Assembly: GCA_965371185.1 (NCBI GenBank)
Contig: CBDUXN010000071.1
Coordinates: 1 to 15,851 of the forward strand
Length of the DNA: 15,851 nucleotides
Direction of reading: 5' to 3'
Source: an uncultured Thermoplasmata archaeon
GTDB lineage: Archaea > Thermoplasmatota > Thermoplasmata > GCA-020350865
A program made the translations under genes and the position numbers. Position 1 is the first letter of the stretch; every line of letters begins with the position of its first letter. Shown here in pieces: positions 3,038-15,546 of the stretch. A model generated the notes under the pieces. The model was not told the DNA's origin and ran no database searches. It saw only the letters and a program-made list of their open reading frames with translations.

Positions 3038-3286
3038 ATTATCCTCCAAAGATGGATTAACACTTCATCTTACCTTTAGCAACCCTCTCCAATTTGCCAA
3101 TGCAATGTAGCGATAAAAACCTTGCGATAGAGGAGGCTAAACCTCTTCCACCTCGAGTAATAACCTCCAAACTTCTATCAGCCTTTTGGATCATCGAAAC
3201 GACTCCATTTAATCAAATATATCGAATTCTCAATTCGCTCAGCTACTCAATGGTTTTTGGCCATCTGTTTTTCAAAGGATATTGGC

Positions 3287-4282
3287 CTATGAAGCAATTA
3301 TGCAGGTTTGGGGCTCTCTAAGAGTTGACGTGGTCTTAAGTAGCTGCAGTATGCCCTTATACTCTTCATGTTGTCGTATACCCTCATGCCTAACATGCGT
3401 TCCCTGAATGTAAAGTCCAGGACCCTTATGTCTATCCTTTTCACTCTTCAGGTCTATATCCCTTAAACCTCGTCCTATCCTGTACCTTATAAATATAAGA
3501 TCTTGGATGATTTGGGTTATATCCTTTACTTTAACGAGATCTCCATCCCAGTCCTTTAAAACATCGTAATACTTATCCTCGATCTTCTTGAGGAGTTTTC
3601 TCAGGTCTTCCCGTATTCCTTCTGGCTCCGCACCCGAGAAAACAACCACAAGGAAAACCAATTCGCCGTGTTCAATTAAAATTCTTGTGTTTCCGTATAC
3701 CAGTGTTTCCAGGCCTGTTTCTGCACTTTCTTCGTCCCCGAAGGCATCTTTCACAAAGGCTTGTACAGCGCTCAGCATCGATCCAACTATATGCTCATCC
3801 AGTGTATTCGCACCGTGGCGTGCAGCATGTGATACAACATTCCCGGCATCATTTATCAGGAACGCCTCCCGGATCGTAACATACTTCTGGGAATCATCAA
3901 CCAAGGAGGGGATAGTAATATCAGAAAAAGTGCTAACAAACGGTCGATAAGGGTCAGAAACCTCAAGTAAATTGGCAGTTTTAAAGGTTTCCAATCTTGA
4001 ATGCAGGCTCTTTATGCCAGTTCCCTTATCCGAAAACTCCTTTGTAAACCCATTATTGTGGGGTCGTAGACAATCCGCTATTATTTCATTTTGATTTTTA
4101 TTGGCTATCTTCTTTATGACTTCTATTTTCTGCCTTTCTTGAAAATCAGAGAATGAGCAAATCGGGCTTTCTCCCCTGCCAATTAGAAGCTTTACCAGGC
4201 TATCCCCCTTTACCTGGCCAACAGAATTTCCATTAGGAAGATGCAGCAGCTTCCTAAGGTCTTTCTGTTGTTTTTTCACCAT
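3287..4282 (-). CDS. Hypothetical protein with a central Roadblock/LC7 (MglB-like) domain
   Basis: A 331-aa ORF with an ATG start (atggtgaaaaaacaacag on the minus strand). The segment KYVTIREAFLINDAGNVVSHAARHGANTLDEHIVGSMLSAVQAFVKDAFG...TLVYGNTRILIEHGELVFLVVVFSGAEP follows the Roadblock/LC7 pattern: a beta-strand (D/G-rich, 'vvs'), then a helix ('aamaaal'), then a second beta pair ('llvvvad'). I recognise nothing in the N- or C-terminal extensions. Confidence 0.7.
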   Translation of the reverse strand: MVKKQQKDLRKLLHLPNGNSVGQVKGDSLVKLLIGRGESPICSFSDFQERQKIEVIKKIANKNQNEIIADCLRPHNNGFTKEFSDKGTGIKSLHSRLETFKTANLLEVSDPYRPFVSTFSDITIPSLVDDSQKYVTIREAFLINDAGNVVSHAARHGANTLDEHIVGSMLSAVQAFVKDAFGDEESAETGLETLVYGNTRILIEHGELVFLVVVFSGAEPEGIREDLRKLLKKIEDKYYDVLKDWDGDLVKVKDITQIIQDLIFIRYRIGRGLRDIDLKSEKDRHKGPGLYIQGTHVRHEGIRQHEEYKGILQLLKTTSTLREPQTCIIAS

Positions 4283-4409: not shown

Positions 4410-4760
4410 GTGGGTAGATTAGACCTAATTATTCCTGACGATATTGAAAGAGAACTGAGAATCGAATTGATAAACAGATTTGGCGGCAAAAAAGGTGATC
4501 TGTCAAGAGCTGTTGCAGAAGCCATAGAAATGTGGATCAATAGCCCACCATTACAGGAGTCTACAATAGAGGATTTAAAAAAGACTGCCATGAATTTAGA
4601 GCTTCTTCCTAGTGAAAGAGAAAAAGCCACTAAAATGTTAAGCGGATTGGGTAAAGCCGCTCTCCCAGCACTTAATGAAATATCCAAGAATCAAGGCCTT
4701 TTACCATCACAAAGAGAGATGGCATTGGATGAGATCGATCGGATCTTAAAGGGGGTCTAG
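4410..4760 (+). CDS. Ribbon-helix-helix (CopG/Arc/MetJ-like) DNA-binding protein with a C-terminal helical extension
   Basis: The start is GTG at 4410; no in-frame ATG lies between the upstream TAA at 4383 and this codon, and GGTGA sits 4 nt upstream. The N-terminus GRLDLIIPDDIERELRIELINRFGGKKGDLSRAVAEAIEMWI fits the RHH pattern of a beta-strand with alternating hydrophobics followed by helix-turn-helix. The C-terminal ~60 aa hold an internal repeat (LLPSEREKA..., LLPSQREMA...). Confidence 0.7.
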   Translation: MGRLDLIIPDDIERELRIELINRFGGKKGDLSRAVAEAIEMWINSPPLQESTIEDLKKTAMNLELLPSEREKATKMLSGLGKAALPALNEISKNQGLLPSQREMALDEIDRILKGV

Positions 4761-4830: not shown

Positions 4831-5361
4831 ATGTTTGAAGGGGTTGTAGCCACAAGCGCAATAAAAGGTGTTGCTTCATCGATTGCATCGATAGGTAGAA
4901 AGTATTCGGGTTATAAACTCGATAAGAGGAAAGAGGATGATCTCGCTGTGCGAAAGAAATTGATGGATGAGATAGGCAAATCTCGAGGCCATCTAATGAA
5001 TATCGTTGAGGAATCGCACAGCAAGAAGGATGACGATACAACCAACACAGCAAAAAAGACAATCGATGAGCTGGATCTTCTTTTAAACGATATCAATTTG
5101 TCAGAAACAGGGCATAAATATCCCTTTTTTTCGGAACAAAAATCGATCAATAAGAAGTCCCTGGAAGAATTAATCGAGCACGATAAAAAATTAATCAGCA
5201 GTATCGAGAATATTACCGAAGCGAGCAAGAAGCTGGAACTCGCCATAATAGATAGAGAGGATAGAGATACTGCTTGGGAGTTGAAAAGGATCAGACAGTA
5301 TGTAACAACATGTAGAGACGAATATAAGAACAGAAGGGACTGTTTAAGGAGGGTGAAATAA
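4831..5361 (+). CDS. Small charged coiled-coil protein with an N-terminal Gly/Ala/Ser-rich amphipathic segment (hypothetical)
   Basis: 176 aa. It has an ATG start with a strong SD, and its stop overlaps the next start (TAATG at 5359-5363). The N-terminus is MFEGVVATSAIKGVASSIASIG. The remainder is highly charged with heptad-like periodicity. Confidence 0.7.
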   Translation: MFEGVVATSAIKGVASSIASIGRKYSGYKLDKRKEDDLAVRKKLMDEIGKSRGHLMNIVEESHSKKDDDTTNTAKKTIDELDLLLNDINLSETGHKYPFFSEQKSINKKSLEELIEHDKKLISSIENITEASKKLELAIIDREDRDTAWELKRIRQYVTTCRDEYKNRRDCLRRVK

Positions 5362-6704
5362 TGGCAATACACTGGAAGAATTTTATGGGTAAAAATCCTG
5401 CGAATGTACTGGCTATGAAGATACCGAAAGGCCAAATCAAAGGTTTTTTCAAGAAGGAGGTAATAATCGAACCTGGGGAAGCTGCAGTTTTAATTAAGGA
5501 CGGAAGAATAGAGGAGGAACTTACACAGACTAAACTTAAGAACTTTGGGGGCGGATTCGGGGGATGGCTGGAAAGAGTTACAGGGAAAGGCGAGGACGAA
5601 TTATTATTGTTCGTAGACACAAATACAATGGATTTGGAACTCCCAGTGAAAGCAACTTCGAAAGATCACACCGAAATAAATGGCACCTGTACGGTTAGAT
5701 GCCAGGTGAATGTTAGTGAGGCCATAAAAATAATAGGAGCGATGGAAGGTAAAGATACCTTAACTAAGACTCAATTGCAGAATAGGATACAATCTGAGAT
5801 GGCCACTGCAGTTTTATCAAATAAGATCGCGAATTACTCTGCCGATGAATTTCATGGAAATATCAATATCATCAAGGATATAGAGACCTCAGCATCAATT
5901 GAAATGCGAAAAACCTTTGAGTTGTGGGGTCTGAAGCTCATCAAAATGTACACAAATTGGGATAAAAACGCGTTTGATGAATTGATGGAATATCGGAATG
6001 CATGGGAGCTTTATGATGCGAGAAAGGACGTCAAGTACGAGGGCGAAATCAAAGAGATGGAAAAAAACCATGGTATATTAAAAAAGCGTGCAGAACAGGC
6101 ACATGACCAGAGATTAGCAGGGGAATTGAATGAGATCGATGTCAAGCGTTTGTGGGAGGACTATGCCCAGGAAGTGGATAAGCGCAGAAGAATGCACGAG
6201 ATCATGCTTCAGAAAGAGGAAAAAAAGGTTCAAATTGAAATTGACGATATGGAGTTAAAGCAGGATAATAAAGAAATTGAAGAGGCCATCAAATGGAAAG
6301 ATAAGTTGCAGAGACAAAAGATGGAAAAACAGAAACAAGAGGTTGATCAGCAGATAAAAATGTATCAAGGTATGCAGCTTGAGTCAAAAAAGGTGGACGC
6401 AAGCATTGAGAAAGAAAGGATCAGAATGGAACCTGAAAAGGCAAAGTCTAACTTAGAAATTTACGAGAAAGCTCAGGAAATAGAGAAAAAACATCAATTA
6501 GAGATGGTAGAGCAGATGGCCAAACTCACTCAGGCTGCTAAACCCGATGTACCGCAAACATTGGTGCAGGGGGGAAGTCCGACACCTGTGGTTAGCGTTC
6601 AAACCCAGGAACCTCAGAAAGACGAGGTCAAATGTCCGAGCTGCGATGCTAATATTCAGGCGGGGATGACTTTCTGCCCGTCCTGTGGGACGAAAATAGA
6701 ATAG
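5361..6704 (+). CDS. SPFH (band-7/flotillin-like) domain protein with a long E/K/Q-rich coiled-coil and a C-terminal CxxC...CxxC zinc ribbon; no TM segment
   Basis: 447 aa. AGGAGGGTGA lies upstream of the ATG, which overlaps the upstream stop (translational coupling). Residues ~33-200 match the SPFH domain pattern: IIEPGEAAVLIKDGRI, then FVDTNTMDLELPVKATSKDHTEINGTCTVRCQV, then LTKTQLQNRIQSEMATAVLSNKIANYSADEF...IETSASIEMRKTFELWGLKLIKMYTNW. Compare stomatin/HflK, e.g. 'AWGIKVERVEIKDV'. A ~200-aa EKQ-rich coiled coil follows, like a flotillin. The C-terminus is CPSCDANIQAGMTFCPSCGTKIE. Confidence 0.85.
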   Translation: MAIHWKNFMGKNPANVLAMKIPKGQIKGFFKKEVIIEPGEAAVLIKDGRIEEELTQTKLKNFGGGFGGWLERVTGKGEDELLLFVDTNTMDLELPVKATSKDHTEINGTCTVRCQVNVSEAIKIIGAMEGKDTLTKTQLQNRIQSEMATAVLSNKIANYSADEFHGNINIIKDIETSASIEMRKTFELWGLKLIKMYTNWDKNAFDELMEYRNAWELYDARKDVKYEGEIKEMEKNHGILKKRAEQAHDQRLAGELNEIDVKRLWEDYAQEVDKRRRMHEIMLQKEEKKVQIEIDDMELKQDNKEIEEAIKWKDKLQRQKMEKQKQEVDQQIKMYQGMQLESKKVDASIEKERIRMEPEKAKSNLEIYEKAQEIEKKHQLEMVEQMAKLTQAAKPDVPQTLVQGGSPTPVVSVQTQEPQKDEVKCPSCDANIQAGMTFCPSCGTKIE

Positions 6705-6980: not shown

Positions 6981-9900
6981 ATGAAAGGAAAGGTAATTGT
7001 TCTTATGATTATCGTTGGAATGATAGCACTGGCGATTATTGTAGCTGGACCTTCTCAAGCAGAGAATTATGGACTGGAAGAGACCCTTATTGGGCATTCT
7101 AATTATGTACATAGTGTTTCGTGGAATCCTAACGGAACCCTATTGGCTTCTGGAGCTAACGATCATGAAATTAAAATATGGGATACAAGTACTTGGCAGA
7201 TTACACGTACACTAACAGGGCATACTGATAAAGTATTTAGCGTCTCTTGGAATCCTAATGGGACTCTATTAGCCTCTGGTTCTGCCGACCATACAATCAA
7301 GATATGGAATACGAGCACTTGGGAAAACCTACAAACACTGATAGGGCATTCGGGCGTTGTTACGAGCGTTACATGGAGTCCTGATGGAAAACAGTTGGCC
7401 TCAGGGTCCTATGACTATAAAATCAAAATCTGGAATACGAGTACTTGGCAGAACACAGACACGCTAACTGCGCATGAGTGGTATTCTTCCCTGGTGGCTT
7501 GCGTTTCATGGAGCCCTGATGTAAGCCTCATGGCCTCTGGCGGATCGGGCAATGAACTTAGGATATGGAACACGAGCACCTGGGGACTTGTCAAAACGGT
7601 AGATACGCAAACTTGGCCTGGTGGAACCGTAAGGAGCGTTTCGTGGAGCCCCGATGGAAGCCAATTAGCTTCTGTACCTCCCAACGAAAACTCCTTCAAG
7701 ATATGGAATACCACTACATGGGATAACACTCAAACAATCATAGGGCATACAGCCCAGGTGAGTAGCCTCTCATGGAACCCTAATGGGAACCGCCTGGCCT
7801 CTGGATCCGACGATAATACAATCAGGATATGGAATACGAGCACATGGACGAATTTACAGACAACGGCATATCCTACCGACGTGTTATGTATCTCGTGGAG
7901 CCCCAATGGGACTCGTCTAGCTTCCGGATTTAGAACCAACAATATTACGATATTAGGTATCGATTCCGACGCAGACGGCATAGCAGACGTAAAAGACACC
8001 TTTCCAGCCGATTCCACGCAGTGGATTGACACAGATGGTGATGGATACGGGGATAATTCGACAGGTAACAATCCCGACTTAATCCCGGATGATCCAACGC
8101 AATGGAATGATTCCGATGGAGATGGGTATGGGGATAACCAGACTGGGAATAACCCTGACATATATCCAAATGATAACACGCAATGGATTGACACAGATGG
8201 TGATGGATACGGGGATAATTCGACTGGTAATAATCCCGACTTGTTCCCAGCGGACTTTTCTCAATGGAACGACTCTGATGGAGATGGATATGGGGATAAC
8301 CAGACAGGGAACAGCCCTGATGCATTTCCAAATGATAACACGCAATGGATTGACACAGATGGCGACGGATATGGAGATAATTCGACTGGTAACAATCCTG
8401 ACTTGTTCCTAGCGGACTTAACTCAATGGAACGACTCTGATGGAGATGGATATGGGGATAACCAGACAGGGAATAGCCCTGATGCATTTCCATTCGATCG
8501 TACACAATGTAATGATACGGACGATGATGGATATGGCGATAATCCAAACGGGAACCAACCCGATCATATGCTGACGGTTTGGGGTAATTCAACCATAGAT
8601 TATTTCGGTTGTCCAGATGATGACGGTGATGGCCATTCAAACCTAACAGATTCTTTTCCTTTTGACCCGGCCGCAAGTTTCGATTCCGATGGAGATAGCT
8701 ACCCTGACGAATGGAACCTTGGAAAGACCGCTTCTGACTCCACCACTGGTCTTAATCTCGATGTCTTCCCCAATGATCCCGGCGAATGGGGAGATATCGA
8801 TGGCGATGGCATTGGTGACAACTCCGACTTTCTCCCACAACTTCATAATTTAATATTTTATGGTATCATAGTTATTATCATTATTATACTATTATTTTTA
8901 GTATCTTTGATAGGTATAAAAAATATAGTAGAATCGAGGAGCTATACCTCCAATTTCATCAGTTGGATTGCTAGTTTAAAGGTTATGAAAGATGAAAAGC
9001 CACCAAAAGAGCTATTGAGAACTCTTGAGCCACTATTTGAAAAATACAATGAACTTTCAAATGATAAATCTATTCCACAAAAAATAGACAACTTGAATGG
9101 TGAGTTTTATAAACTTGAGGATATCTCAGCAAACTATGAAGGTATGTCAAAAAGAAGGACAAAAGCAGGCAAACAGGCTAAAGGGCGTAAAAAGGAGATT
9201 GACGAGAACATCATCGCTCTCAAAGATGAAATTTGGCGTTTAAACAAGTTAAATGGTGAGAGAGAACAAAATATTTTGGAATTGGAGGATAAGGCTAGGG
9301 ATATTATCTTGGCCTGGAGAGCGGGTAAAACCATTAGCAGTGAAACCGCTATAGATAAAGCCGAGAGAAGACAAAAAGAGATCAACGCATCTGTTTCAGG
9401 AATATTGGAGCGAGTTAAAACTATCACAAAAATAGCAGACATTAAAGAGTCTGAAGAAATTACCGTTGATGTTACAAGGATAATGACTATCGTGGGTGAA
9501 AAAGTAAAGTTTGGTGTTAAAGTACAGAATGATTATGATTTTACTATCAACGACATTGACGTTCGGATTAGCACACCAAGAAAGGCTCTTGATATAATTG
9601 AACCTCATTCAAATGGTATTGCTCATATCAATAATTTATCTCCTGGTGAATCGCAAACTATTATTTTCATGTTAAAACCTTTAAGGTGCGTCGATACAAA
9701 AATCACAGGAGTTGTGGAGTTTAAAGATCCGAGAGGTGAATTGCAGGTTAAAAAAATCAGACCAAAGGCCACTGGGTTGGTATGCCCGTTTATAGAGCCC
9801 TATATAATAACTTCAGGCGATTATGTAAAAATGACAGAAACTTTGGAATCCACTCAAACCGGCTTTACCATAAAAGGCATAACAGTAGACTATATTCGGG

Positions 9901-10334
9901 ATAAATTGCTTGATCATACGGAATATATGCACGATGTAGATATCAAGAAGTTTAGTTTTGATGGTGTTGAGAGTTATATGATTTGGCAGAGTGGAAAATC
10001 CAAAGTACAAAATTTAATTTATCTATTAACAACAGTCATTACCAAGGATAAGGAATTAGACATTGTGAACACAGCTTTTTCAGCCTACTGTAGCCAAGAT
10101 CATGGTTTGCCATCATTTCTTGGTGAGGTTGTAGATACCTTAAAAGCGAATGTAAAAGCTGAAAAGGGAGCAATGGAAATCTCTAGTATCAATATAAATC
10201 AAGCGATAAATATGGTGGATTGTGTTGTGAATAGGAGTAGTATTGGAGGCGGAGGTTCTGGGAATATATGCATTGATATGAAGGATAGCATCGTTCATAA
10301 GAGCAGAATATCTGGTTCTGATGATTTAGAATAG
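6981..10334 (+). CDS. Type-I membrane protein: signal peptide, extracellular 7-blade WD40 propeller, ~9 TSP3-like Ca-binding repeats, TM helix, coiled-coil, and a conserved C-terminal cytoplasmic module shared with the 10700 gene
   Basis: 1117 aa with an ATG start. The signal peptide is MKGKVIVLMIIVGMIALAIIVAGPSQA|EN. Seven repeats of the WD40 type are present: GH...VxSVSWNPNGTLLASGSxDxTIKIWNTSTW. The canonical WD dipeptide is replaced in each blade by W-N-T-S-T-W, i.e. an N-glycosylation sequon per blade. The Ca-binding repeats have the form DTDGDGYGDNSTGNNPDLFPxDxTQWNDSDGDGYGDNQTGNSPDAFPND (DxDxDG motif). The TM helix is LIFYGIIVIIIIILLFLVSLIGI (~nt 8850-8920). This is followed by a ~190-aa coiled-coil and then the shared module at ~nt 9480-10260. 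Confidence 0.9.
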   Translation: MKGKVIVLMIIVGMIALAIIVAGPSQAENYGLEETLIGHSNYVHSVSWNPNGTLLASGANDHEIKIWDTSTWQITRTLTGHTDKVFSVSWNPNGTLLASGSADHTIKIWNTSTWENLQTLIGHSGVVTSVTWSPDGKQLASGSYDYKIKIWNTSTWQNTDTLTAHEWYSSLVACVSWSPDVSLMASGGSGNELRIWNTSTWGLVKTVDTQTWPGGTVRSVSWSPDGSQLASVPPNENSFKIWNTTTWDNTQTIIGHTAQVSSLSWNPNGNRLASGSDDNTIRIWNTSTWTNLQTTAYPTDVLCISWSPNGTRLASGFRTNNITILGIDSDADGIADVKDTFPADSTQWIDTDGDGYGDNSTGNNPDLIPDDPTQWNDSDGDGYGDNQTGNNPDIYPNDNTQWIDTDGDGYGDNSTGNNPDLFPADFSQWNDSDGDGYGDNQTGNSPDAFPNDNTQWIDTDGDGYGDNSTGNNPDLFLADLTQWNDSDGDGYGDNQTGNSPDAFPFDRTQCNDTDDDGYGDNPNGNQPDHMLTVWGNSTIDYFGCPDDDGDGHSNLTDSFPFDPAASFDSDGDSYPDEWNLGKTASDSTTGLNLDVFPNDPGEWGDIDGDGIGDNSDFLPQLHNLIFYGIIVIIIIILLFLVSLIGIKNIVESRSYTSNFISWIASLKVMKDEKPPKELLRTLEPLFEKYNELSNDKSIPQKIDNLNGEFYKLEDISANYEGMSKRRTKAGKQAKGRKKEIDENIIALKDEIWRLNKLNGEREQNILELEDKARDIILAWRAGKTISSETAIDKAERRQKEINASVSGILERVKTITKIADIKESEEITVDVTRIMTIVGEKVKFGVKVQNDYDFTINDIDVRISTPRKALDIIEPHSNGIAHINNLSPGESQTIIFMLKPLRCVDTKITGVVEFKDPRGELQVKKIRPKATGLVCPFIEPYIITSGDYVKMTETLESTQTGFTIKGITVDYIRDKLLDHTEYMHDVDIKKFSFDGVESYMIWQSGKSKVQNLIYLLTTVITKDKELDIVNTAFSAYCSQDHGLPSFLGEVVDTLKANVKAEKGAMEISSININQAINMVDCVVNRSSIGGGGSGNICIDMKDSIVHKSRISGSDDLE
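7975..8570 (+). repeat. Intragenic tandem array of ~3.5 copies of a 162-bp unit (two 81-bp half-units) encoding the TSP3-like Ca-binding repeats
   Basis: Unit-A copies start at ~8016, 8178 and 8340: cacgca(g/a)tggattgacacagatggtgatggatacggggataattcgac.ggtaa.aatcc.gactt. Unit-B copies start at ~8099, 8262 and 8424: caatggaa.ga.tc.gatggagatgg.tatggggataaccagac.ggga...ccctga. The period is exactly 162 bp, and copies 2 and 3 differ at only a few positions. The array decays from ~8500. Confidence 0.8.
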
Positions 10335-10471
10335 GGGGGAAGATCTGATACTCGATACAATGTAGTCCAAAGAATAGCAATTTGACAATAAAAAAATAAA
10401 AATTTTCTAAAGCAAATCCATTATATATCCTGAGTTCATGATAAACAAACCTTTAACGCCACCTCATCCCC

Positions 10472-10572
10472 ATCACAATTCTTATAATACCCAAACCCTT
10501 TTGGGGATTAAACCCAAAATCTATTGCAGAGGAATATCACGGAAAAAGGAGGTTAACATTACCGTGGAAGAC
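10472..10572 (+). promoter_or_regulatory. Copy A of a duplicated ~100-bp promoter/5'UTR/start segment (BRE-TATA TTATAATA, palindrome CCCAAACCCTTTTGGGG, SD AAAGGAGG, decayed start accGTGgaagac)
   Basis: About 85% identical to 12389-12490 (copy B), with a perfect 39-bp core ATCACAATTCTTATAATACCCAAACCCTTTTGGGGATTA. In copy A the position homologous to the carboxyltransferase ATG is GTG, followed by 4 codons and TAG. It is probably the promoter driving the 540-aa gene, through a ~200-nt leader. Confidence 0.5.
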
Positions 10573-10699
10573 ATAATATAGGAGCTATGGGGAAAGGATT
10601 TAGTATGTAGGTTGATTGGAGAGAAGGATGAGTACACGTTTGTTTGAATTTCGGCGAGACATGAAAGAAGGTTAAAAAGTTATGTGATGGAAGGGTAAT

Positions 10700-12322
10700 A
10701 TGGAAGATCAAAAAATAACAAATCTACGGATTTTAATATTCTTCGGGATATTTTTAATGATAATAGGTTTAATAGGACCATGGTATAGTTATAGTTACGA
10801 ACCAGAGGAGTATGATAGTTATTATGATAAATATGAGTTCAACGGTTTCTACACCTATTATCACTATGAGGATTACTATGTTGTGGAGAATAGCTTTAAT
10901 GAAATAACGCCCATGTCTTTGCTAATTTCATGGCCTTTCCTTTTATGCATATACTTATCTCTTTTCTCTGTAATAACATTTAGATTTAAATTTCCTCTTT
11001 TAATTCCAATAGTCACAACTTCGGAAATTTGCTCCTATATTATTCTCTTGGCAATTATTGGTCAAATAAACAGGATCGGATGGGGGATACCTTTCCTATT
11101 TATTGGAAACGCGTTTGTTTTTATAGGATTACCAGGCTTAAGAGATAAATTAAAAGAAACAATAATGGGTTCACTTGGATCGACTTCAGAAAATACTATT
11201 TCACTGGTTCAAGTTGCAGAAAAAACCGGGTTCAGTAAGGTTGCGGTCAAAGATATGGTAAAATATCTTCTAACAAAGGACAAGATTGGAGGACATCTGG
11301 ACGGCCCTAATTTGATGTATTACAAGATATCGCCCTTTGTCTCACCTGTTTCTAGTGGACCCCAAATCCAATCTATTCCCCTTACTGAGGAGGTGGAACA
11401 AAAAGTAATGGAAGAAGATATCTCCCAACCACCAGTAACCTCTGAAGAAACAGAGAGGGAAGAAGATATCTCCACACAAATAACACCTGATGAAGAAACT
11501 ATTCCTCCAACTGAAAATATCGGCATAAAGAGCGCAATATCCTATAAAGGCGCAAAAGTGGTATATAAGGTAAAAGTTGAGAATAATTCTAAGGAACCTA
11601 TTGCAAGGATCAGGGCCAAACTCTATCTTTCTGATAATGTTTTTATCCTTGATAAGGATGAAAAAGGATTGGATCTCCTACAACCAGAAGAGTCCGCAAC
11701 GGTTACATTTAACCTTCGACCAAAAGGTGAATGTGGAAATGTGGGTATATCTGGAAAAGTGGTCTATTATGATTATAAGATAAAAGAATACAAAGAGCTG
11801 AAAATTGAGTCCAAAACAACCGCAATTATCTGCCCTATGATGAAGGTTGTTCAAACAGATGAGGATAGTTGGCGGGACAATGTCAGCAGAATGATCAAGG
11901 TTGAAGAAACAACTGAGGAAATCCCGATCGAGGCGAAAGCCCTTTTTGATGTGGTGGTAGATGTGGTCAGGGATATCAACTGCTATATGCTGGAACCTAA
12001 AATTACAGATGCCTCTGGAATGTTTCGTGGAGTGGGAAGATTCTATTGTGAGGGTGTAAAAGGTCTTAAGTATGCCATTCATGTCGAGGTTATAGGGGGT
12101 AAAACCAAATCTAAATTGATATTAAAAGCCTTTGCAGAAAATGAAGAATCACTAATAGGTTTCTATCACTGCATTTTGGATGAGATTGAAAAGAGAACCA
12201 AGATTAAGGAGTATATACATGATGCTCTAATTGTACATGGGGATTATGTAACTGGCGAGAAGATTGAGGTGAGGGATAGTGTGGTTAGTAGGTCGAGTAT
12301 AAAAGGGGACAAAAAGGATTAG
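10700..12322 (+). CDS. Membrane-tethered winged-helix protein: 4 TM helices, cytoplasmic wHTH, acidic linker, and the C-terminal module shared with the 6981 gene
   Basis: 540 aa with an ATG start. The four TM helices are ILIFFGIFLMIIGLIGPWYSY, MSLLISWPFLLCIYLSLFSVITF, LLIPIVTTSEICSYIILLAIIGQI and GWGIPFLFIGNAFVFIGLPGL. Loop 1 is acid/aromatic-rich and probably outside. Positive residues follow TM2 and TM4, placing N- and C-termini inside. The wHTH-like segment is TISLVQVAEKTGFSKVAVKDMVKYLLTKDKIGGHLDG. An E/T/P-rich acidic linker precedes the ~260-aa C-module (nt ~11535-12300), which is homologous to the C-terminus of the 1117-aa protein. Confidence 0.85.
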   Translation: MEDQKITNLRILIFFGIFLMIIGLIGPWYSYSYEPEEYDSYYDKYEFNGFYTYYHYEDYYVVENSFNEITPMSLLISWPFLLCIYLSLFSVITFRFKFPLLIPIVTTSEICSYIILLAIIGQINRIGWGIPFLFIGNAFVFIGLPGLRDKLKETIMGSLGSTSENTISLVQVAEKTGFSKVAVKDMVKYLLTKDKIGGHLDGPNLMYYKISPFVSPVSSGPQIQSIPLTEEVEQKVMEEDISQPPVTSEETEREEDISTQITPDEETIPPTENIGIKSAISYKGAKVVYKVKVENNSKEPIARIRAKLYLSDNVFILDKDEKGLDLLQPEESATVTFNLRPKGECGNVGISGKVVYYDYKIKEYKELKIESKTTAIICPMMKVVQTDEDSWRDNVSRMIKVEETTEEIPIEAKALFDVVVDVVRDINCYMLEPKITDASGMFRGVGRFYCEGVKGLKYAIHVEVIGGKTKSKLILKAFAENEESLIGFYHCILDEIEKRTKIKEYIHDALIVHGDYVTGEKIEVRDSVVSRSSIKGDKKD

Positions 12323-12347
12323 AAGTAGATGCTAAAACGATTGCTGA

Positions 12348-12381
12348 TCTTTTATTTCGTAATGGGTGTGATAGATTTTTG
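12348..12381 (+). terminator. Candidate oligo-T terminator downstream of the 540-aa gene
   Basis: T-tracts cTTTTaTTTcg (12350-12357) and aTTTTTg (12376-12380) lie 25-55 nt after the TAG at 12320-12322. Archaeal intrinsic termination uses T-runs. The signal is weak. Confidence 0.25.
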
Positions 12382-12388
12382 ACTGTTT

Positions 12389-12475
12389 ATCACAATTCTT
12401 ATAATACCCAAACCCTTTTGGGGATTAGGCCCAAAATCGGTTGCTCGATAATATCACATGAAAAGGAGGCATACC
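12389..12475 (+). promoter_or_regulatory. Copy B: promoter and 5'UTR of the carboxyltransferase operon (TATA TTATAATA 12399-12406, palindrome 12407-12423, SD AAGGAGG 12463-12469)
   Basis: The A/T box is preceded by the conserved ATCACAATTC (BRE-like position). The predicted TSS is ~12428, about 25 nt from the TATA centre. The SD lies 6 nt before the ATG at 12476. A bacterial-style TTGACT sits only 15 nt upstream of TATAAT and is not conserved in copy A, so I favour an archaeal-type promoter. Confidence 0.5.
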
Positions 12476-14026
12476 ATGACCATGGAAGACAAGATCCAGG
12501 AGCTGAGGGAAAAGAAAGAGCAGGCCAGGCTTGGCGGGGGAAAAGAACGAATAGAAAAGCAGCACTCGCAGGGCAAACTCACAGCCAGGGAGAGAGTAGA
12601 GAAGGTCCTGGACGATGGAAGCTTCATCGAGCTGGATGCCTTTGCGCTGCACGAATGCACTGATTTCGGGATGGATAAGAAGCGCATTCTCGGGGACGGG
12701 GTTGTTACAGGCTACGGTACCATCGACAGCCGCCTTGTTTACATATTCTCCCAGGATTTCACGGTTTTTGGCGGCTCTCTGGGATGGCGATTCGCCGAAA
12801 AGATTTGCAAGATCATGGACCTGGCGATGAGGAACGGTGCACCGGTCATAGGTATCAACGATTCTGGCGGCGCAAGGATCCAGGAAGGCGTTGTGAGCCT
12901 TGGAGGGTACGCGGAAATTTTCTTCAGGAATGTTATAGCCTCCGGAGTGGTGCCTCAGATCTCTGCAATAATGGGGCCGTGCGCTGGCGGTGCGGTGTAT
13001 TCACCTGCAATGACGGATTTCATACTCATGGTCAAAGAGACCAGTAACATGTTCATCACAGGGCCGGAAGTAATAAAAACTGTGACTAACGAAGAGGTTA
13101 CTTTCGAGGAGCTGGGCGGTGCCATGACCCACAACACGAAAAGCGGCGTTGCACACTTCGCATGCGAGGACGAGGAGGACTGTGCCAGGATGATAAAAAA
13201 GCTGCTCAGTTATATACCCTCCAACAACCTGGACGATCCGCCATATATGGAGACAAACGACGATCCGAACAGGAAGGACATGGAGCTGGTCAACATCGTT
13301 CCCGACGATCCAAATAAACCGTACGATATCAAGGACGTCATCCTAAGGGTTGTGGACAACAGGGATTTCTTTGAGGTGCACCCGTACTGGGCAAAGAACA
13401 TAGTGGTTGGATTTGCAAGGCTTGACGGTCATCCAGTGGGCGTGGTGGGAAACCAGCCCAATTTTCTTGCAGGCACGCTTGACATAAATTCCTCAACAAA
13501 AGGCGCCCGCTTCGTCAGGTTCTGCGATGCATTCAACATCCCCTTGCTGACCTTCGTTGACGTTCCAGGCTTTCTGCCGGGCACGGCCCAGGAGTACGGC
13601 GGCATCATAAGGAACGGCGCGAAACTGCTGTACGCTTACTGCGAGGCAACCGTTCCGAAAATCACGGTCATTACCAGGAAAGCCTACGGCGGGGCGTACG
13701 ATGTCATGTGCTCGAAGCATATCCGGGCAGATATTAATTTTGCGTGGCCCTCTTCCGAAATAGCTGTCATGGGCCCTGACGGCGCTGTGAACATCGTGTT
13801 CAGAAAGGAAATAGAGAAGGCTGAGGACAAGAAAAAGAGAAAGGAGGAACTGGTCGCTGAATACAGGAAAAAATTTGCAAATCCCTATATAGCAGCAGAG
13901 AAGGGGTATATAGACGATATCATCGAGCCGCAGGAGACGAGACCGAGGGTGATAAATGCTCTGCATACCCTATTGAACAAACGAGAACCGCGCCCTGCAA
14001 AAAAGCACGGCAACATACCGCTGTAA
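12476..14026 (+). CDS. Acyl-CoA carboxyltransferase of the propionyl-CoA carboxylase beta / methylmalonyl-CoA decarboxylase alpha / transcarboxylase 12S family
   Basis: The track ORF starts at 12458, but that ATG overlaps the SD. I prefer ATG 12476 ([13 protein letters not shown]...), 6 nt after AAGGAGG. The N-terminus is [41 protein letters not shown]. Further diagnostic segments are [42 protein letters not shown], the oxyanion and CoA-binding regions, and [25 protein letters not shown]. These are all characteristic of PccB/MmdA-type carboxyltransferases. The ORF is ~517 aa, the typical length. Confidence 0.9.
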
Positions 14027-14049: not shown

Positions 14050-15546
14050 TTGGAGAAAAAGCCGATCCAAATCACTGACACCGCCCTCAGGGACGCCCAT
14101 CAGTCCCTGCTCGCCACGAGAATGCGCACGGAGGACATGCTGCCAATTGCTGAGAAGATGGACTCCATCGGCTACTGGTCTGTGGAGATGTGGGGCGGCG
14201 CGACATTCGATTCATGCCTAAGGTTCCTAAAGCAGGACCCCTGGGAGAGAATAAGGCTTTTAAAAGAGGCCATGCCAAATACGAAGCTCCAGATGCTGCT
14301 TAGGGGGCAGAACATCGTTGGATACAAGCATTACCCTGATGATGTTGTGGAGAAGTTCGTGGAAACTGCCCACAAGAACGGCATCGATGTTTTCAGAATA
14401 TTCGATGCACTTAACGACGTCAGGAACATGAAAACCGCCTTGGAATCCACAAAGAAAGCAGGGGCGATTGCAGAATGCTGCGTGTGCTATACCATAAGTC
14501 CAGTGCACACAAACGATGTTTTTGTGAACATGGCAACGGAACTGGAAGGCATGGGCTCTGATATGCTGTGCATAAAGGATATGGCAGGCCTGCTCTCGCC
14601 AGGTCATGCCTTCGAGCTGGTCACCAAATTGAAGGAAAACATCTCGATCCCAATACACATGCACTGCCACGACACCAGCGGCATGGCTTCGGCTGCTTAT
14701 CTCAAGGGGATAGAGGCTGGAGCAGAAATCATCGACACGGCGATATCAAGCCTCTCAAAGGGCACATCACAACCTCCAACAGAGACCATGGTTGCCATGC
14801 TGGGAGACACGATCTACGATACAGGCTTAGATTTGGAATTACTCGGAGAGGTAGCAGACCATTTCACTAATGTAAGAAAAAAATATCGCATCTATGAGAG
14901 CAAGTTCACTGGAATTGATACGGATGTTCTTCAGTTTCAGATACCGGGAGGGATGATGTCCAACCTTGTGAAGCAACTGCGGGACCAAAATGCAGAGGAT
15001 AAACTGCCAGAGGTCCTTAAAGAAGTGCCCATTGTCAGGAAGGAGCTCGGTTATCCCCCTTTGGTAACGCCCTCCAGCCAGATCGTGGGAACCCAGGCGA
15101 CACTGAATGTGCTCCTCAAGGAGAGATACAAGATGATACCAAAGGAGACAAAGAATCTTATCAAGGGGCTTTACGGCAGACCCGCGGCTCCAATAGACGA
15201 GAATGTGAAGAAAATGGTGATAGGGGATGAGGAGCCAATGACATCCCGACCCGCAGATTCATTGGAGCCTGAATTGGAGCGGTTGAAAAAGGAGCTGGGC
15301 AGCGACAACATCGAGGATGTACTCAGCTACGCGCTCTTTCCACAGGTTGCAAAAAGGTTCTTTGAAGAGAGGGACGGCAAGGTCATCGACGAAGCAGAGG
15401 TTGCAGCAATAGCTGCTGCTCTCGCCTCCAGGTTCTTGAAGACCGAGGATAGAGGGATCTCTCGAAAAATCGAGCGCGGGAATGAGCCCAGCGCATGGGG
15501 CATGGCGGGGAGGCTTGAATTGATGAATGCAAGGGGAAGGATATGA
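14050..15546 (+). CDS. Pyruvate/oxaloacetate carboxyltransferase subunit (PycB / OadA / transcarboxylase 5S type), lacking a fused biotinyl domain
   Basis: The start is TTG at 14050: an in-frame TAA lies immediately upstream at 14047-14049, the next ATG is 24 codons into the conserved region, and GGGGGAG sits 7 nt upstream. The N-terminus is IQITDTALRDAHQSLLATRMRTEDML. Further segments are GYWSVEMWGGATFD, the HMGL-like TIM-barrel motifs (HMHCHDTSGMA) and a conserved C-terminal region. 498 aa. The stop overlaps the next ATG (ATGA at 15543-15546). Confidence 0.9.
   Translation: MEKKPIQITDTALRDAHQSLLATRMRTEDMLPIAEKMDSIGYWSVEMWGGATFDSCLRFLKQDPWERIRLLKEAMPNTKLQMLLRGQNIVGYKHYPDDVVEKFVETAHKNGIDVFRIFDALNDVRNMKTALESTKKAGAIAECCVCYTISPVHTNDVFVNMATELEGMGSDMLCIKDMAGLLSPGHAFELVTKLKENISIPIHMHCHDTSGMASAAYLKGIEAGAEIIDTAISSLSKGTSQPPTETMVAMLGDTIYDTGLDLELLGEVADHFTNVRKKYRIYESKFTGIDTDVLQFQIPGGMMSNLVKQLRDQNAEDKLPEVLKEVPIVRKELGYPPLVTPSSQIVGTQATLNVLLKERYKMIPKETKNLIKGLYGRPAAPIDENVKKMVIGDEEPMTSRPADSLEPELERLKKELGSDNIEDVLSYALFPQVAKRFFEERDGKVIDEAEVAAIAAALASRFLKTEDRGISRKIERGNEPSAWGMAGRLELMNARGRI

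What the first reader, a model, noticed from the sequence alone, without database searches (positions are those of the whole stretch)
9480..12300. A ~260-aa cytoplasmic module of unknown function is shared by a surface WD40/Ca-binding receptor-like protein and an adjacent membrane-tethered winged-helix protein
The C-terminus of the 1117-aa protein (nt ~9480-10260) and the C-terminus of the 540-aa protein (nt ~11535-12300) align over their whole length at roughly 25% identity. Compare EKVKFGVKVQNDYDFTINDIDVRIS...LSPGESQTIIFMLKPLRC...ITGVVEFKD...KKIRPKATGLVCPFIEP with AKVVYKVKVENNSKEPIARIRAKLYL...LQPEESATVTFNLRPKGEC...ISGKVVYYD...LKIESKTTAIICPMMKV. Conserved anchors are V.VKV.N, L.PGES.T..F.L.P, I.G.V.(F/Y).D and K.T...CP. 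A second conserved alpha/beta region follows: ...AFSAYCSQDHGLPSFLGEVVDTLK versus ...KAFAENEESLIGFYHCILDEIEKR. The first half has the alternating-hydrophobic pattern of a CARDB/Ig-like beta-sandwich, but by topology it sits in the cytoplasm in both proteins. One partner carries a large extracellular sensor-like ectodomain and the other a DNA-binding wHTH. Adjacent genes sharing a private cytoplasmic module suggests hetero-oligomerisation. On that reading this is a two-protein transmembrane signalling device, with an extracellular ligand or Ca2+ sensor coupled to a membrane-anchored transcription factor. I do not recognise the module as any named domain.
Basis: seen in the sequence. Interest (0 to 1): 0.75.

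Follow-up and report, generated by a model that had tools for sequence, protein, structure and literature searches.

The report
Archaeal adaptin-appendage-like module pair
The ~260-residue cytoplasmic module shared by the two neighbouring membrane proteins is real, but it is not unknown: it is the archaeal look-alike of the "ear" (appendage) domain of eukaryotic clathrin-adaptor and COPI coat proteins, described in 2024 as part of an ESCRT-linked membrane-sorting gene cluster, and these two proteins are new members with unusual outer domains.

Summary
The C-termini of the 1117-aa protein (aa ~827-1090) and the 540-aa protein (aa ~272-539) are homologous over the whole module. BLASTP detects only the first half (E 1e-7). 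Profile-profile comparison gives 99.85 % probability, E 7e-31, over 250 columns.

The 540-aa protein's module is 51 % identical to WP_048205090.1. Makarova et al. [quoted passage not shown] Their "Meth_adaptin" loci contain two appendage proteins, an SPFH-coiled-coil-Zn-ribbon protein, ESCRT-III and Vps4.

The window has the SPFH gene directly upstream of the pair. It has no Vps4 or ESCRT-III. The closest related contig has both next to the same pair.

The signalling and transcription-factor reading is not supported. The proteins are better read as membrane-anchored adaptor or cargo-receptor subunits.

New here:
- the WD40/Ca-repeat ectodomain fusion
- two conserved co-located subfamilies
- a portable tail motif, DSVVQRSxIG

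The parts
4831..5361 (+). 176-aa helical protein whose stop overlaps the start of the SPFH gene. It is conserved upstream of the SPFH gene in the loci that lack an adjacent Vps4/ESCRT-III pair.
   Evidence: BLASTP homologs in L002 (37 % id, E 3e-26), L057 and L037, each upstream of the SPFH-like gene. No Pfam or NCBIfam family. No similarity to the ESCRT-III-like proteins of L024 or L070.
5361..6704 (+). 447-aa SPFH-like protein with a coiled coil and a C-terminal Zn ribbon, of the same kind as arCOG15283 of Makarova et al. 2024.
   Evidence: Zn ribbon: Pfam PF13248, E 7e-8. Full-length BLASTP homologs lie in 36 related loci, nearly always directly upstream of the B-type appendage gene. The L024 homolog carries Pfam Band_7/SPFH (E 4.6e-7) plus a Zn ribbon. 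The window protein itself gets no direct SPFH hit.
6981..10334 (+). 1117-aa type-I membrane protein ('protA'): signal peptide, WD40 propeller, Ca-binding-type Asp-rich repeats, TM, charged helical linker, A-type appendage-like module, and a tail with two motifs.
7077..7970 (+). WD40 beta-propeller (aa ~33-330), predicted to be extracellular.
   Evidence: Pfam WD40, E 1.2e-62, plus many propeller families. It lies between the signal peptide and the TM.
7983..8840 (+). Repeated DxDGDGYGDN (thrombospondin-type-3-like) Asp-rich repeats. The DNA is a tandem array of 81/162-nt units.
   Evidence: Sequence inspection. Tandem Repeats Finder: 8015-8554, period 162, 3 copies, 88 % matches. The Ca-binding function is inferred from the motif only.
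8862..8918 (+). Transmembrane helix of protA (aa 628-646).
   Evidence: Kyte-Doolittle window score 3.44. The N-flank is acidic and the C-flank is K/R-rich.
8919..9458 (+). Charged helical juxtamembrane linker (aa 647-826).
   Evidence: 32 % identical to aa 251-370 of P0003 (E 7.5e-12). Aligned with the L070 ortholog from aa 655.
9459..9800 (+). protA appendage-like module, Ig-like beta-sandwich subdomain (aa 827-940).
9813..10157 (+). protA appendage-like module, platform (TBP/helix-grip-like) subdomain (aa 945-1059).
10218..10310 (+). Two copies of the tail motif in the low-confidence C-terminal tail of protA: DCVVNRSSI (aa 1080) and DSIVHKSRI (aa 1102).
   Evidence: Regex scan. A-type relatives also carry two copies. 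pLDDT is below 50 from model residue 260.
10543..10644 (+). Decayed 3' relic of a coiled-coil/winged-helix gene in the protA-protB spacer. It reads KKEVNITVEDII*ELWGKDLVCRLIGEKDEYTFV*.
   Evidence: tblastn of the L070 509-aa coiled-coil/wH protein: 76 % identity over 17 aa at 10594-10644, E 0.002. Translation, coordinates. The match is short, so this is a lead rather than a proven pseudogene.
10700..12322 (+). 540-aa polytopic membrane protein ('protB'): four TMs, a short possible winged-helix-like segment, an acidic linker, a B-type appendage-like module, and a tail motif.
10724..11131 (+). Four predicted TM helices of protB (aa 9-27, 74-92, 102-120, 126-144), with a Tyr/acid-rich first loop.
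   Evidence: Kyte-Doolittle scan and sequence.
11192..11329 (+). Not verified.
   Evidence: No Pfam or NCBIfam hit. PDB phmmer gives only SloR, E 0.7. No homolog among 260 family proteins and 70 loci.
11519..11848 (+). protB appendage-like module, Ig-like beta-sandwich subdomain (aa 274-383).
   Evidence: AF2 model m6fcb0dcf1d80: strands at residues 4-113, pLDDT 76-95. Sub-threshold Pfam CARDB hit (19.9 bits against a cut-off of 22.7).
11861..12214 (+). protB appendage-like module, platform subdomain (aa 388-505).
12275..12301 (+). Tail motif DSVVSRSSI (aa 526-534) in the disordered C-terminal tail of protB.
   Evidence: Regex scan. Family consensus [IV]-K-D-S-[VI]-[VI]-Q-R-S-N-I-G. pLDDT below 50 for model residues 238-270.

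Best explanation
The shared module is the archaeal adaptin/COPI appendage-like region: an Ig-like beta-sandwich followed by a TBP/helix-grip-like platform. This family is catalogued as arCOG15284, a component of the 'Meth_adaptin' ESCRT-associated systems of Methanosarcinales and some other archaea.

The window encodes one member of each of two conserved subfamilies. ProtA is A-type and protB is B-type. Both are anchored in the membrane with the module in the cytoplasm. They lie directly downstream of the system's SPFH-coiled-coil-Zn-ribbon scaffold gene.

Inferred mechanism (not shown): each protein couples something on the outside or within the membrane to a cytoplasmic interaction hub, the appendage. 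For protA the outer part is a WD40 propeller plus Ca-binding-type repeats. For protB it is a four-TM bundle with a Tyr/acid-rich loop. Like adaptin ears, the appendage would recruit partners through short linear motifs. This would deliver the membrane protein, or whatever it binds, to an SPFH-delimited membrane patch that ESCRT-III and Vps4 remodel into vesicles or otherwise sort.

The conserved DSVVQRSxIG motif in the disordered tails is the best candidate for the linear motif that links the components. The two paralogous modules may bind different partners or each other.
For: Shown:
1. The whole module is homologous between the two proteins.
2. Both AF2 models (pLDDT 82.6 and 78.2) have the same sandwich-plus-platform architecture.
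4. Foldseek ranks a COPI appendage (9qpq_H, E 1.4e-9, 241 columns) and alpha-adaptin ears (E ~1e-7, 231-243 columns) first.
5. P0051, which matches protB at E 3.6e-73 with 51 % identity in the module, is WP_048205090.1. Table S1 of Makarova et al. [quoted passage not shown]
6. The same paper reports HHpred probability 98 to AP-2 beta (2IV8_A) and beta-COP (5NZR_B) for other members. It describes loci with two appendage proteins, SPFH-coiled-coil-Zn ribbon, ESCRT-III and Vps4.
7. In 69 related loci an SPFH homolog is present in 41 (a BLAST label that includes at least one non-SPFH protein, L018 7568-8932), a Vps4-like AAA protein in 23 and an ESCRT-III-like protein in 28. A-type and B-type occur together in 10.
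8. The closest related contig, L070, has A-type (39 % identical to protA), B-type (86 % identical to protB's module), coiled-coil/wH, motif-bearing proteins, ESCRT-III and MIT-AAA Vps4 in one row.
9. Family members carry very diverse ectodomains: PEGA, S-layer, ProX/OpuAC, PQQ and Kelch propellers, and LamG. One carries a MIT domain.
Against: - The window itself contains no Vps4 or ESCRT-III. Only a short relic of the coiled-coil/wH gene is present. The system may therefore be incomplete, split or decaying here.
- No sequence-level (HMMER) match links the module to eukaryotic adaptins. The only hint is a weak Coatamer_beta_C hit in one homolog (E 0.004).
- No binding partner, oligomeric state or cellular function has been measured for any family member. 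The literature search found no experimental paper.
- The SPFH assignment for the window's 447-aa protein is transitive, through homologs.
Confidence: 0.8

Rival explanations
1. ProtA is an extracellular ligand or Ca2+ sensor. It signals through hetero-dimerisation of the shared cytoplasmic module to protB, a membrane-tethered winged-helix transcription factor.
For: Two divergent copies of the module are adjacent here and in the closest relative. A-type and B-type co-occur in 10 of 69 loci. ProtB aa ~165-210 has a helix-turn-helix-like pattern on inspection, with a non-significant match to the SloR HTH (E 0.7). Winged-helix proteins are conserved components of these loci.
Against: The putative wHTH has no Pfam or NCBIfam support. 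It is not conserved in any relative. The ortholog with an 86 % identical module has a single TM and no such segment. In the related systems the winged helices are interpreted as ESCRT-II-like protein-interaction domains. The conserved neighbours are SPFH, ESCRT-III and Vps4, not regulators. The module's fold is that of a protein-interaction hub of vesicle coats.
Confidence: 0.05
2. The module is a generic Ig-like plus helix-grip (Bet v 1/START/DUF3568-like) ligand- or lipid-binding unit that resembles adaptin ears only by convergence. The proteins sense or bind a small hydrophobic molecule or lipid at the inner face of the membrane, independently of ESCRT.
Confidence: 0.1
3. The pair is a decaying remnant. 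After the ESCRT part of the locus was lost, the two genes are non-functional or have been put to an unrelated surface function, and the shared module is simply inherited baggage.
For: Vps4, ESCRT-III and an intact coiled-coil/wH gene are missing from the window. A short relic of the latter lies between the two genes. Synteny with L070 breaks at the end of protB, where GC content jumps from ~0.38 to ~0.51.
Against: Both ORFs are intact and long. They keep all the invariant family residues and the tail motifs. The SPFH gene and the 176-aa partner gene are intact upstream. Three other loci (L002, L037, L057) show the same arrangement, with the 176-aa gene and no Vps4 within 10 kb, which suggests a working variant. 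ESCRT genes may lie elsewhere in the genome.
Confidence: 0.05

Closest known systems
[quoted passage not shown] 2024, mBio 15:e00335-24)
   Same: The two-subdomain module is the same, and there is direct sequence membership: protB's module is 51 % identical to the listed member WP_048205090.1. There are two appendage paralogs per locus. The SPFH-coiled-coil-Zn-ribbon neighbour is present. The module is attached by a TM linker to varied outer domains.
   Different: - The window has no Vps4, ESCRT-III or ProX, and only a relic of the coiled-coil/wH gene.
- A 176-aa helical gene sits where the divergent Vps4/ESCRT-III pair usually lies.
- ProtA carries a WD40 propeller plus Asp-rich Ca-type repeats. 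ProtB has a four-TM N-terminus. Neither is described for this clade.
- Neither protein has the C-terminal Zn ribbon that most members carry.
- The closest relatives are MAGs, one of them labelled Thermoplasmata (L002), rather than cultured Methanosarcinales.
Appendage ('ear') domains of AP-2 alpha/beta2, AP-4 beta and COPI beta/gamma
   Same: An Ig-like sandwich followed by a five-stranded, three-helix platform. The module sits at the C-terminus after a flexible or helical linker. It is cytoplasmic and belongs to membrane-trafficking machinery. In eukaryotes these domains are hubs that bind short linear motifs.
   Different: There is no HEAT/alpha-solenoid trunk in the window proteins, which are integral membrane proteins instead. 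HMMER detects no sequence similarity. The relative orientation of the subdomains differs (high global rmsd). The known motif-binding residues were not examined. No clathrin or coat partners are known.
Halo_adaptin proteins of haloarchaea (same paper)
   Same: A beta-propeller (WD40/PQQ-like) is combined with adaptin-like Ig domains in an ESCRT-linked locus.
   Different: Those proteins are reported with several Ig-like domains and no TBP-like platform, and their Vps4 lacks MIT. The window proteins have the full sandwich-plus-platform module.
CARDB (PF07705) and TRAP-beta Ig-like domains
   Same: The first subdomain is an Ig-like sandwich. There is a weak CARDB hit, and Foldseek finds TRAP-beta (E ~3e-5).
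   Different: The CARDB score is below Pfam's cut-off. CARDB domains are typically extracellular, whereas this one is cytoplasmic and always followed by the platform.

Membership tests
arCOG15284 archaeal adaptin-appendage-like proteins (Meth_adaptin) | Significant sequence similarity to listed members | tested here: met
   ProtB against P0051 (= WP_048205090.1, listed in Table S1): E 3.6e-73, 51 % identity over the module. ProtA joins through its own subfamily (27-31 % identity, E 1e-25 to 1e-36) and through profile-profile comparison (probability 99.85 %).
arCOG15284 archaeal adaptin-appendage-like proteins (Meth_adaptin) | Ig-like sandwich followed by a TBP-like platform, matching adaptin/COPI appendages | tested here: met
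arCOG15284 archaeal adaptin-appendage-like proteins (Meth_adaptin) | Neighbouring SPFH-coiled-coil-Zn-ribbon gene (arCOG15283) | tested here: met
   The 447-aa gene at 5361-6704 has a Zn ribbon. It is a full-length homolog of the Band_7-positive proteins that sit upstream of B-type genes in the related loci.
arCOG15284 archaeal adaptin-appendage-like proteins (Meth_adaptin) | Vps4 (MIT-AAA) and ESCRT-III encoded in the same locus | tested here: not met
   No AAA or Snf7 hit in any window ORF. tblastn with Vps4 and ESCRT-III from L024 and L070 finds nothing. Both are present in the closest relative L070, and Vps4 is present in 23 of 69 loci. The 15.8-kb window may simply not include them.
Eukaryotic adaptin / COPI large subunits | C-terminal appendage fold | tested here: met
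Eukaryotic adaptin / COPI large subunits | N-terminal HEAT/alpha-solenoid trunk joined to the appendage by a hinge | tested here: not met
   ProtA has WD40 and Asp-rich repeats plus a TM. ProtB has four TMs. One distant family member, P0049, does carry HEAT/Adaptin_N-type hits.
Eukaryotic adaptin / COPI large subunits | Sequence-profile match to the Pfam appendage families (Alpha_adaptinC2, B2-adapt-app_C, COP-gamma_platf, Coatamer_beta_C) | tested here: not met
   No such hit for the window proteins even at E 10. The family profile against PDB sequences finds no adaptin. The only hint is Coatamer_beta_C at E 0.004, below cut-off, in the L024 homolog.
Eukaryotic adaptin / COPI large subunits | Conserved linear-motif binding sites on the platform and sandwich | not tested
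CARDB (PF07705) | Score above Pfam's gathering threshold | tested here: not met
   19.9 bits against a cut-off of 22.7 for protB's module. No hit for protA's module.
Membrane-tethered wHTH transcription factor | Recognisable DNA-binding winged helix-turn-helix | tested here: inconclusive
   No Pfam or NCBIfam hit. PDB phmmer gives only SloR at E 0.7. The segment is not conserved in relatives. No structure prediction was run on this segment.

The most novel reading that the evidence does not exclude
The conserved tail motif [IV]-K-D-S-[VI]-[VI]-Q-R-S-N-I-G, often followed by a Zn ribbon, may be a portable sorting or recruitment signal read by the appendage domain, or by the Vps4 MIT domain or SPFH.

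The motif sits on the appendage proteins themselves. It also sits on otherwise unrelated proteins of the same loci: HEAT-repeat proteins, and single-pass membrane proteins with LamG-like or Ig-like ectodomains.

If this reading is right, these euryarchaeal systems use an adaptor-ear/linear-motif recognition code analogous to DPF/FxDxF recognition by AP-2 ears. ProtA and protB would be self-tagged cargo receptors.
Probability: 0.25. Interest if true: 0.8.

Novelty: new member of a known kind. Interest (0 to 1): 0.42.

Why it matters
Adaptin-ear-like domains linked to ESCRT and SPFH genes in Euryarchaeota bear on how eukaryotic vesicle-coat and sorting machinery arose. Makarova et al. argue that such domains go back to the last archaeal common ancestor. 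No member has been studied experimentally.

This window adds four things:
- a member with a large WD40/Ca-repeat ectodomain
- evidence that two distinct appendage subfamilies travel together
- a locus variant without an adjacent Vps4/ESCRT-III pair
- a candidate linear motif that gives a concrete, testable handle on what the archaeal 'ears' bind

The main point of the original finding, an unknown shared module, is already explained in the literature.

Tried and rejected
- A word-indexed homolog search with protA's module alone found nothing. Relatives appeared only after an alignment was seeded from locus ORFs.
- Exact-sequence contig look-ups for protB, P0003 and protA failed, so the source organism stays unidentified. 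Cluster look-up gave no name for it.
- The AFDB Foldseek library was unavailable.
- HMMER of the family profile against PDB sequences gave no adaptin. The link to adaptins is structural and HHpred-level only.
- I tested whether the 176-aa protein is the missing ESCRT-III. It has no similarity to the ESCRT-III-like proteins of L024 or L070 and no family hit, so I rejected this for lack of evidence.
- I tested whether the 331-aa gene at 3287-4282(-) or the RHH gene belongs to the system. Neither has homologs in the related loci, so I treat them as unrelated neighbours.
- I considered an extracellular CARDB adhesin reading and rejected it, on topology and on the cytosolic fusion partners.
- The second half of the module could not be shown to be homologous by HMM against sequence alone (E 0.009). 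That conclusion rests on profile-profile comparison and the structure models.

Full report
**What is in the window**

The + strand carries a run of genes:
- a 176-aa helical protein (4831-5361)
- a 447-aa protein with a C-terminal Zn ribbon (5361-6704)
- the 1117-aa protein (6981-10334, 'protA')
- the 540-aa protein (10700-12322, 'protB')
- two carboxylase subunits (12458-14026 and 14050-15546)

ProtA has a signal-peptide-like N-terminus, a WD40 propeller (Pfam WD40, E 1e-62) and a tandem array of DxDGDGYGDN repeats. It then has one TM helix (aa 628-646), a long charged linker and the C-terminal module.

**Checking the observation**

BLASTP of the two C-termini aligns only 103 residues, at 30 % identity and E 1e-7.

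ProtB's module has many relatives. There were 63 hits at 40-59 % identity (one at 86 %), every one matching through the C-terminal ~265 residues. An HMM of those modules matches protA at aa 829-1090 across HMM positions 4-266 (E 1e-12).

ProtA's module has its own subfamily, which I call A-type. Locus ORFs match it over its full length at 27-31 % identity, with E 1e-25 to 1e-36, and 74 database proteins belong to the subfamily. An A-type HMM built without protA matches protB at aa 286-537 (E 6.6e-12).

The second half on its own is too diverged for an HMM-against-sequence search (E 0.009). Profile-profile comparison of A-type against B-type gives probability 99.85 %, E 7e-31, over 250 columns at 24 % identity. 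The observation, including 'roughly 25 % identity over the whole length', is therefore confirmed.

Cytoplasmic placement follows from the flanking charges and from the TM count. It also follows from the cytosolic partners fused to the module in relatives: Zn ribbons, HEAT repeats, DnaJ_C and MIT. No dedicated topology predictor was available.

**What the module is**

AlphaFold2 with family alignments gave confident models: protB's module at pLDDT 82.6 and protA's at 78.2. Both have the same order of elements. An eight- or nine-stranded sandwich comes first. Then comes helix-strand-helix-four strands-helix, which makes a five-stranded sheet with three helices. A disordered tail follows.

| Target | protB module | protA module |
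|---|---|---|

Foldseek on the protA model ranks a COPI appendage first (E 1.4e-9, 241 columns). Seven alpha-adaptin ear entries follow (E ~1e-7 to 1e-6, 231-243 columns), and then TRAP-beta.

Other Ig-like domains match only the first subdomain. Bet v 1 and DUF3568 helix-grip proteins match only the second. Only appendages match both subdomains in order.

**This is already published**

Makarova et al. 2024 (mBio 15:e00335-24; preprint PMC11188069) define 'Meth_adaptin' ESCRT systems. The components are:
- Vps4
- ESCRT-III
- an SPFH protein with a coiled coil and a Zn ribbon
- ProX
- a protein with a coiled coil and a C-terminal wHTH

They report HHpred probability 98 to AP-2 beta (2IV8_A) and beta-COP (5NZR_B).

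The link to this window is direct. P0051, a strong hit of protB, is WP_048205090.1 of Methanococcoides methylutens. [quoted passage not shown]

A representative Methanolobus locus, L024, reproduces their layout:
- a divergent appendage protein with a Zn ribbon (-)
- an AAA/Vps4 protein (-)
- a 204-aa helical protein (-)
- SPFH with a Zn ribbon (+)
- a B-type appendage protein with a Zn ribbon (+)

**Context census**

A scan of one genome per species returned 69 loci. They are mostly Methanosarcinales, plus MAGs under broader labels, one labelled Thermoplasmata and one Pacearchaeota. Within +-10 kb:

| Feature | Loci out of 69 |
|---|---|
| SPFH homolog (BLAST label), almost always immediately upstream of the B-type gene on the same strand | 41 |
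| Vps4-like AAA protein | 23 |
| ESCRT-III-like protein | 28 |
| A-type gene (10 of them together with a B-type gene) | 11 |
| Several B-type copies | 8 |
| Homolog of the 176-aa gene (L002, L037, L057), none with a Vps4 in range | 3 |

The SPFH label is BLAST-based. At least one protein so labelled, L018 7568-8932, turned out on inspection to be an Ig-like/TM/coiled-coil protein.

The coiled-coil/wH protein has homologs in at least 23 loci. It lies next to Vps4, or directly upstream of the A-type gene.

The closest relative is contig L070 (GCA_016840305.1). It carries, in one row:
- an A-type ortholog, 39 % identical to protA aa 655-1090
- a B-type ortholog whose module is 86 % identical to protB's
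- a coiled-coil/wH protein
- two motif-bearing proteins
- ESCRT-III, 52 % identical to the L024 204-aa protein
- a MIT-AAA Vps4

An exhaustive HMMER search of 1.84 billion cluster representatives found 1066 clusters at E <= 1e-3 and 234 at E <= 1e-30. That profile also covered some N-terminal flanking positions, so the weakest hits may not all be module-based. Long members carry PQQ or Kelch propellers, or S-layer, PEGA, CarboxypepD_reg or LamG domains. One carries PQQ, MIT, the module and a Zn ribbon.

**How the window differs**

The window has the SPFH gene and the A-type/B-type pair, but no Vps4 or ESCRT-III.

Between protA and protB, a frame reads KKEVNITVEDII*ELWGKDLVCRLIGEKDEYTFV*. This matches the C-terminus of the L070 coiled-coil/wH protein at 76 % over 17 aa (E 0.002). 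It suggests a decayed relic of that gene.

Downstream of protB, synteny with L070 ends and GC content jumps from about 0.38 to 0.51.

Neither window protein has the C-terminal Zn ribbon that 77 of 103 motif-bearing ORFs carry.

**Mechanism**

Shown:
- the fold
- family membership
- the conserved linkage to SPFH, ESCRT-III, Vps4 and the coiled-coil/wH protein
- the extreme diversity of ectodomains attached through a TM to the module

Inferred:
- Each family member is a membrane-anchored adaptor or cargo receptor.
- The cytoplasmic 'ear' recruits partners, bringing the protein, or its extracellular ligand, into an SPFH-delimited patch that ESCRT-III and Vps4 remodel.

This follows the published proposal that cargo is bound by protein-protein interactions in these systems.

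ProtB's putative wHTH has no family support and is not conserved. If it really is a winged helix, it more likely resembles the ESCRT-II-like interaction winged helices of these systems than a DNA-binding domain.

**The tail motif**

The tail after the module carries [IV]-K-D-S-[VI]-[VI]-Q-R-S-N-I-G. ProtB has one copy and protA has two.

In the related loci the pattern occurs 122 times, against 4.75 expected from shuffles. It is present in 85 of 107 module ORFs. It is also present in about a dozen non-module proteins of the same loci, usually just before a Zn ribbon. Those proteins include:
- HEAT-repeat proteins
- single-pass membrane proteins with large ectodomains
- a small Zn-finger protein
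- in L070, a Zn-ribbon protein with three copies

A term search of the 2024 paper found no mention of such a motif. Adaptin ears work by binding short linear motifs in disordered regions, so this motif is the obvious candidate ligand. That idea is untested.

**Verdict**

The identity of the module is settled with high confidence, and it is already in the literature.

The signalling and transcription-factor interpretation is not supported. The idea that the two proteins work together is plausible.

Novelty is limited to new fusion architectures, the A-type/B-type subfamily pairing, a locus variant without adjacent Vps4, and the tail motif.

Noticed in passing
window 12275-12301, 10218-10244 and 10284-10310; related loci L006 6205-7077, L014 1738-2625, L031 11583-12881, L034 5823-7130, L011 12802-13308, L018 7568-8932, L057 12548-13840; L070 4643-6508 and 6545-7342: A short linear motif, [IV]-K-D-S-[VI]-[VI]-Q-R-S-N-I-G, usually followed within about 30 residues by a Zn ribbon, ends most appendage proteins. 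It also ends unrelated proteins in the same loci: HEAT-repeat proteins, single-pass membrane proteins with big ectodomains, and small Zn-finger proteins. It occurs 122 times against 4.75 expected by shuffling. A term search of the 2024 paper's main text found no mention of it.
   Followed up: partly
window 10543-10644 (spacer between the two genes): A frame reads KKEVNITVEDII*ELWGKDLVCRLIGEKDEYTFV*. It resembles the C-terminal winged helix of the coiled-coil/wH protein encoded next to the orthologous pair in L070 (76 % over 17 aa, E 0.002). It is probably a decayed gene relic.
   Followed up: partly
window ~12300-12460 and onward: GC content jumps from 0.34-0.39 (9-12 kb) to 0.50-0.52 (12.5-15.5 kb) exactly where synteny with the closest relative ends and the carboxyltransferase/PYC_OADA genes begin. 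This could be a recombination boundary, or a chimeric assembly join.
   Followed up: no
window 4831-5361; L002 9049-9570; L057 5442-5954; L037 417-983: A 176-aa helical protein with no family assignment sits immediately upstream of the SPFH-like gene. It is found only in the loci that have no Vps4/ESCRT-III pair within 10 kb. The L057 homolog weakly matches NCBIfam LIMLP_15305 (E 5e-9). It might be a functional replacement or a marker of a distinct subtype.
   Followed up: partly
window 8015-8554: The Asp-rich Ca-binding-type repeats of protA are encoded by a young-looking tandem DNA array (162-nt unit, 3 copies, 88 % identical). This suggests recent repeat expansion in the ectodomain.
   Followed up: no
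window 260-3049 (-): A 929-aa Kelch-propeller/FN3/purple-acid-phosphatase-N protein lies upstream on the other strand. Kelch propellers also occur fused to the appendage module in a distant family member (P0228). The second B-type protein of L002 shares a 145-aa segment with this protein (33 % identity, E 9e-8).
   Followed up: no
P0049 (619 aa) and P0177 (935 aa), relatives from the database: P0049 combines HEAT/Adaptin_N-type repeats with the appendage module, an adaptin-large-subunit-like layout. P0177 combines a PQQ propeller, a MIT domain, the module and a Zn ribbon, which is a direct domain-fusion link to ESCRT-III-binding MIT.
   Followed up: no
window 3287-4282 (-) and 4410-4760 (+): A 331-aa protein with no family hit and a 116-aa ribbon-helix-helix protein (Pfam RHH_6, E 3e-5, just below cut-off) lie between the Kelch gene and the system. 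Neither has homologs in the 70 related loci.
   Followed up: partly
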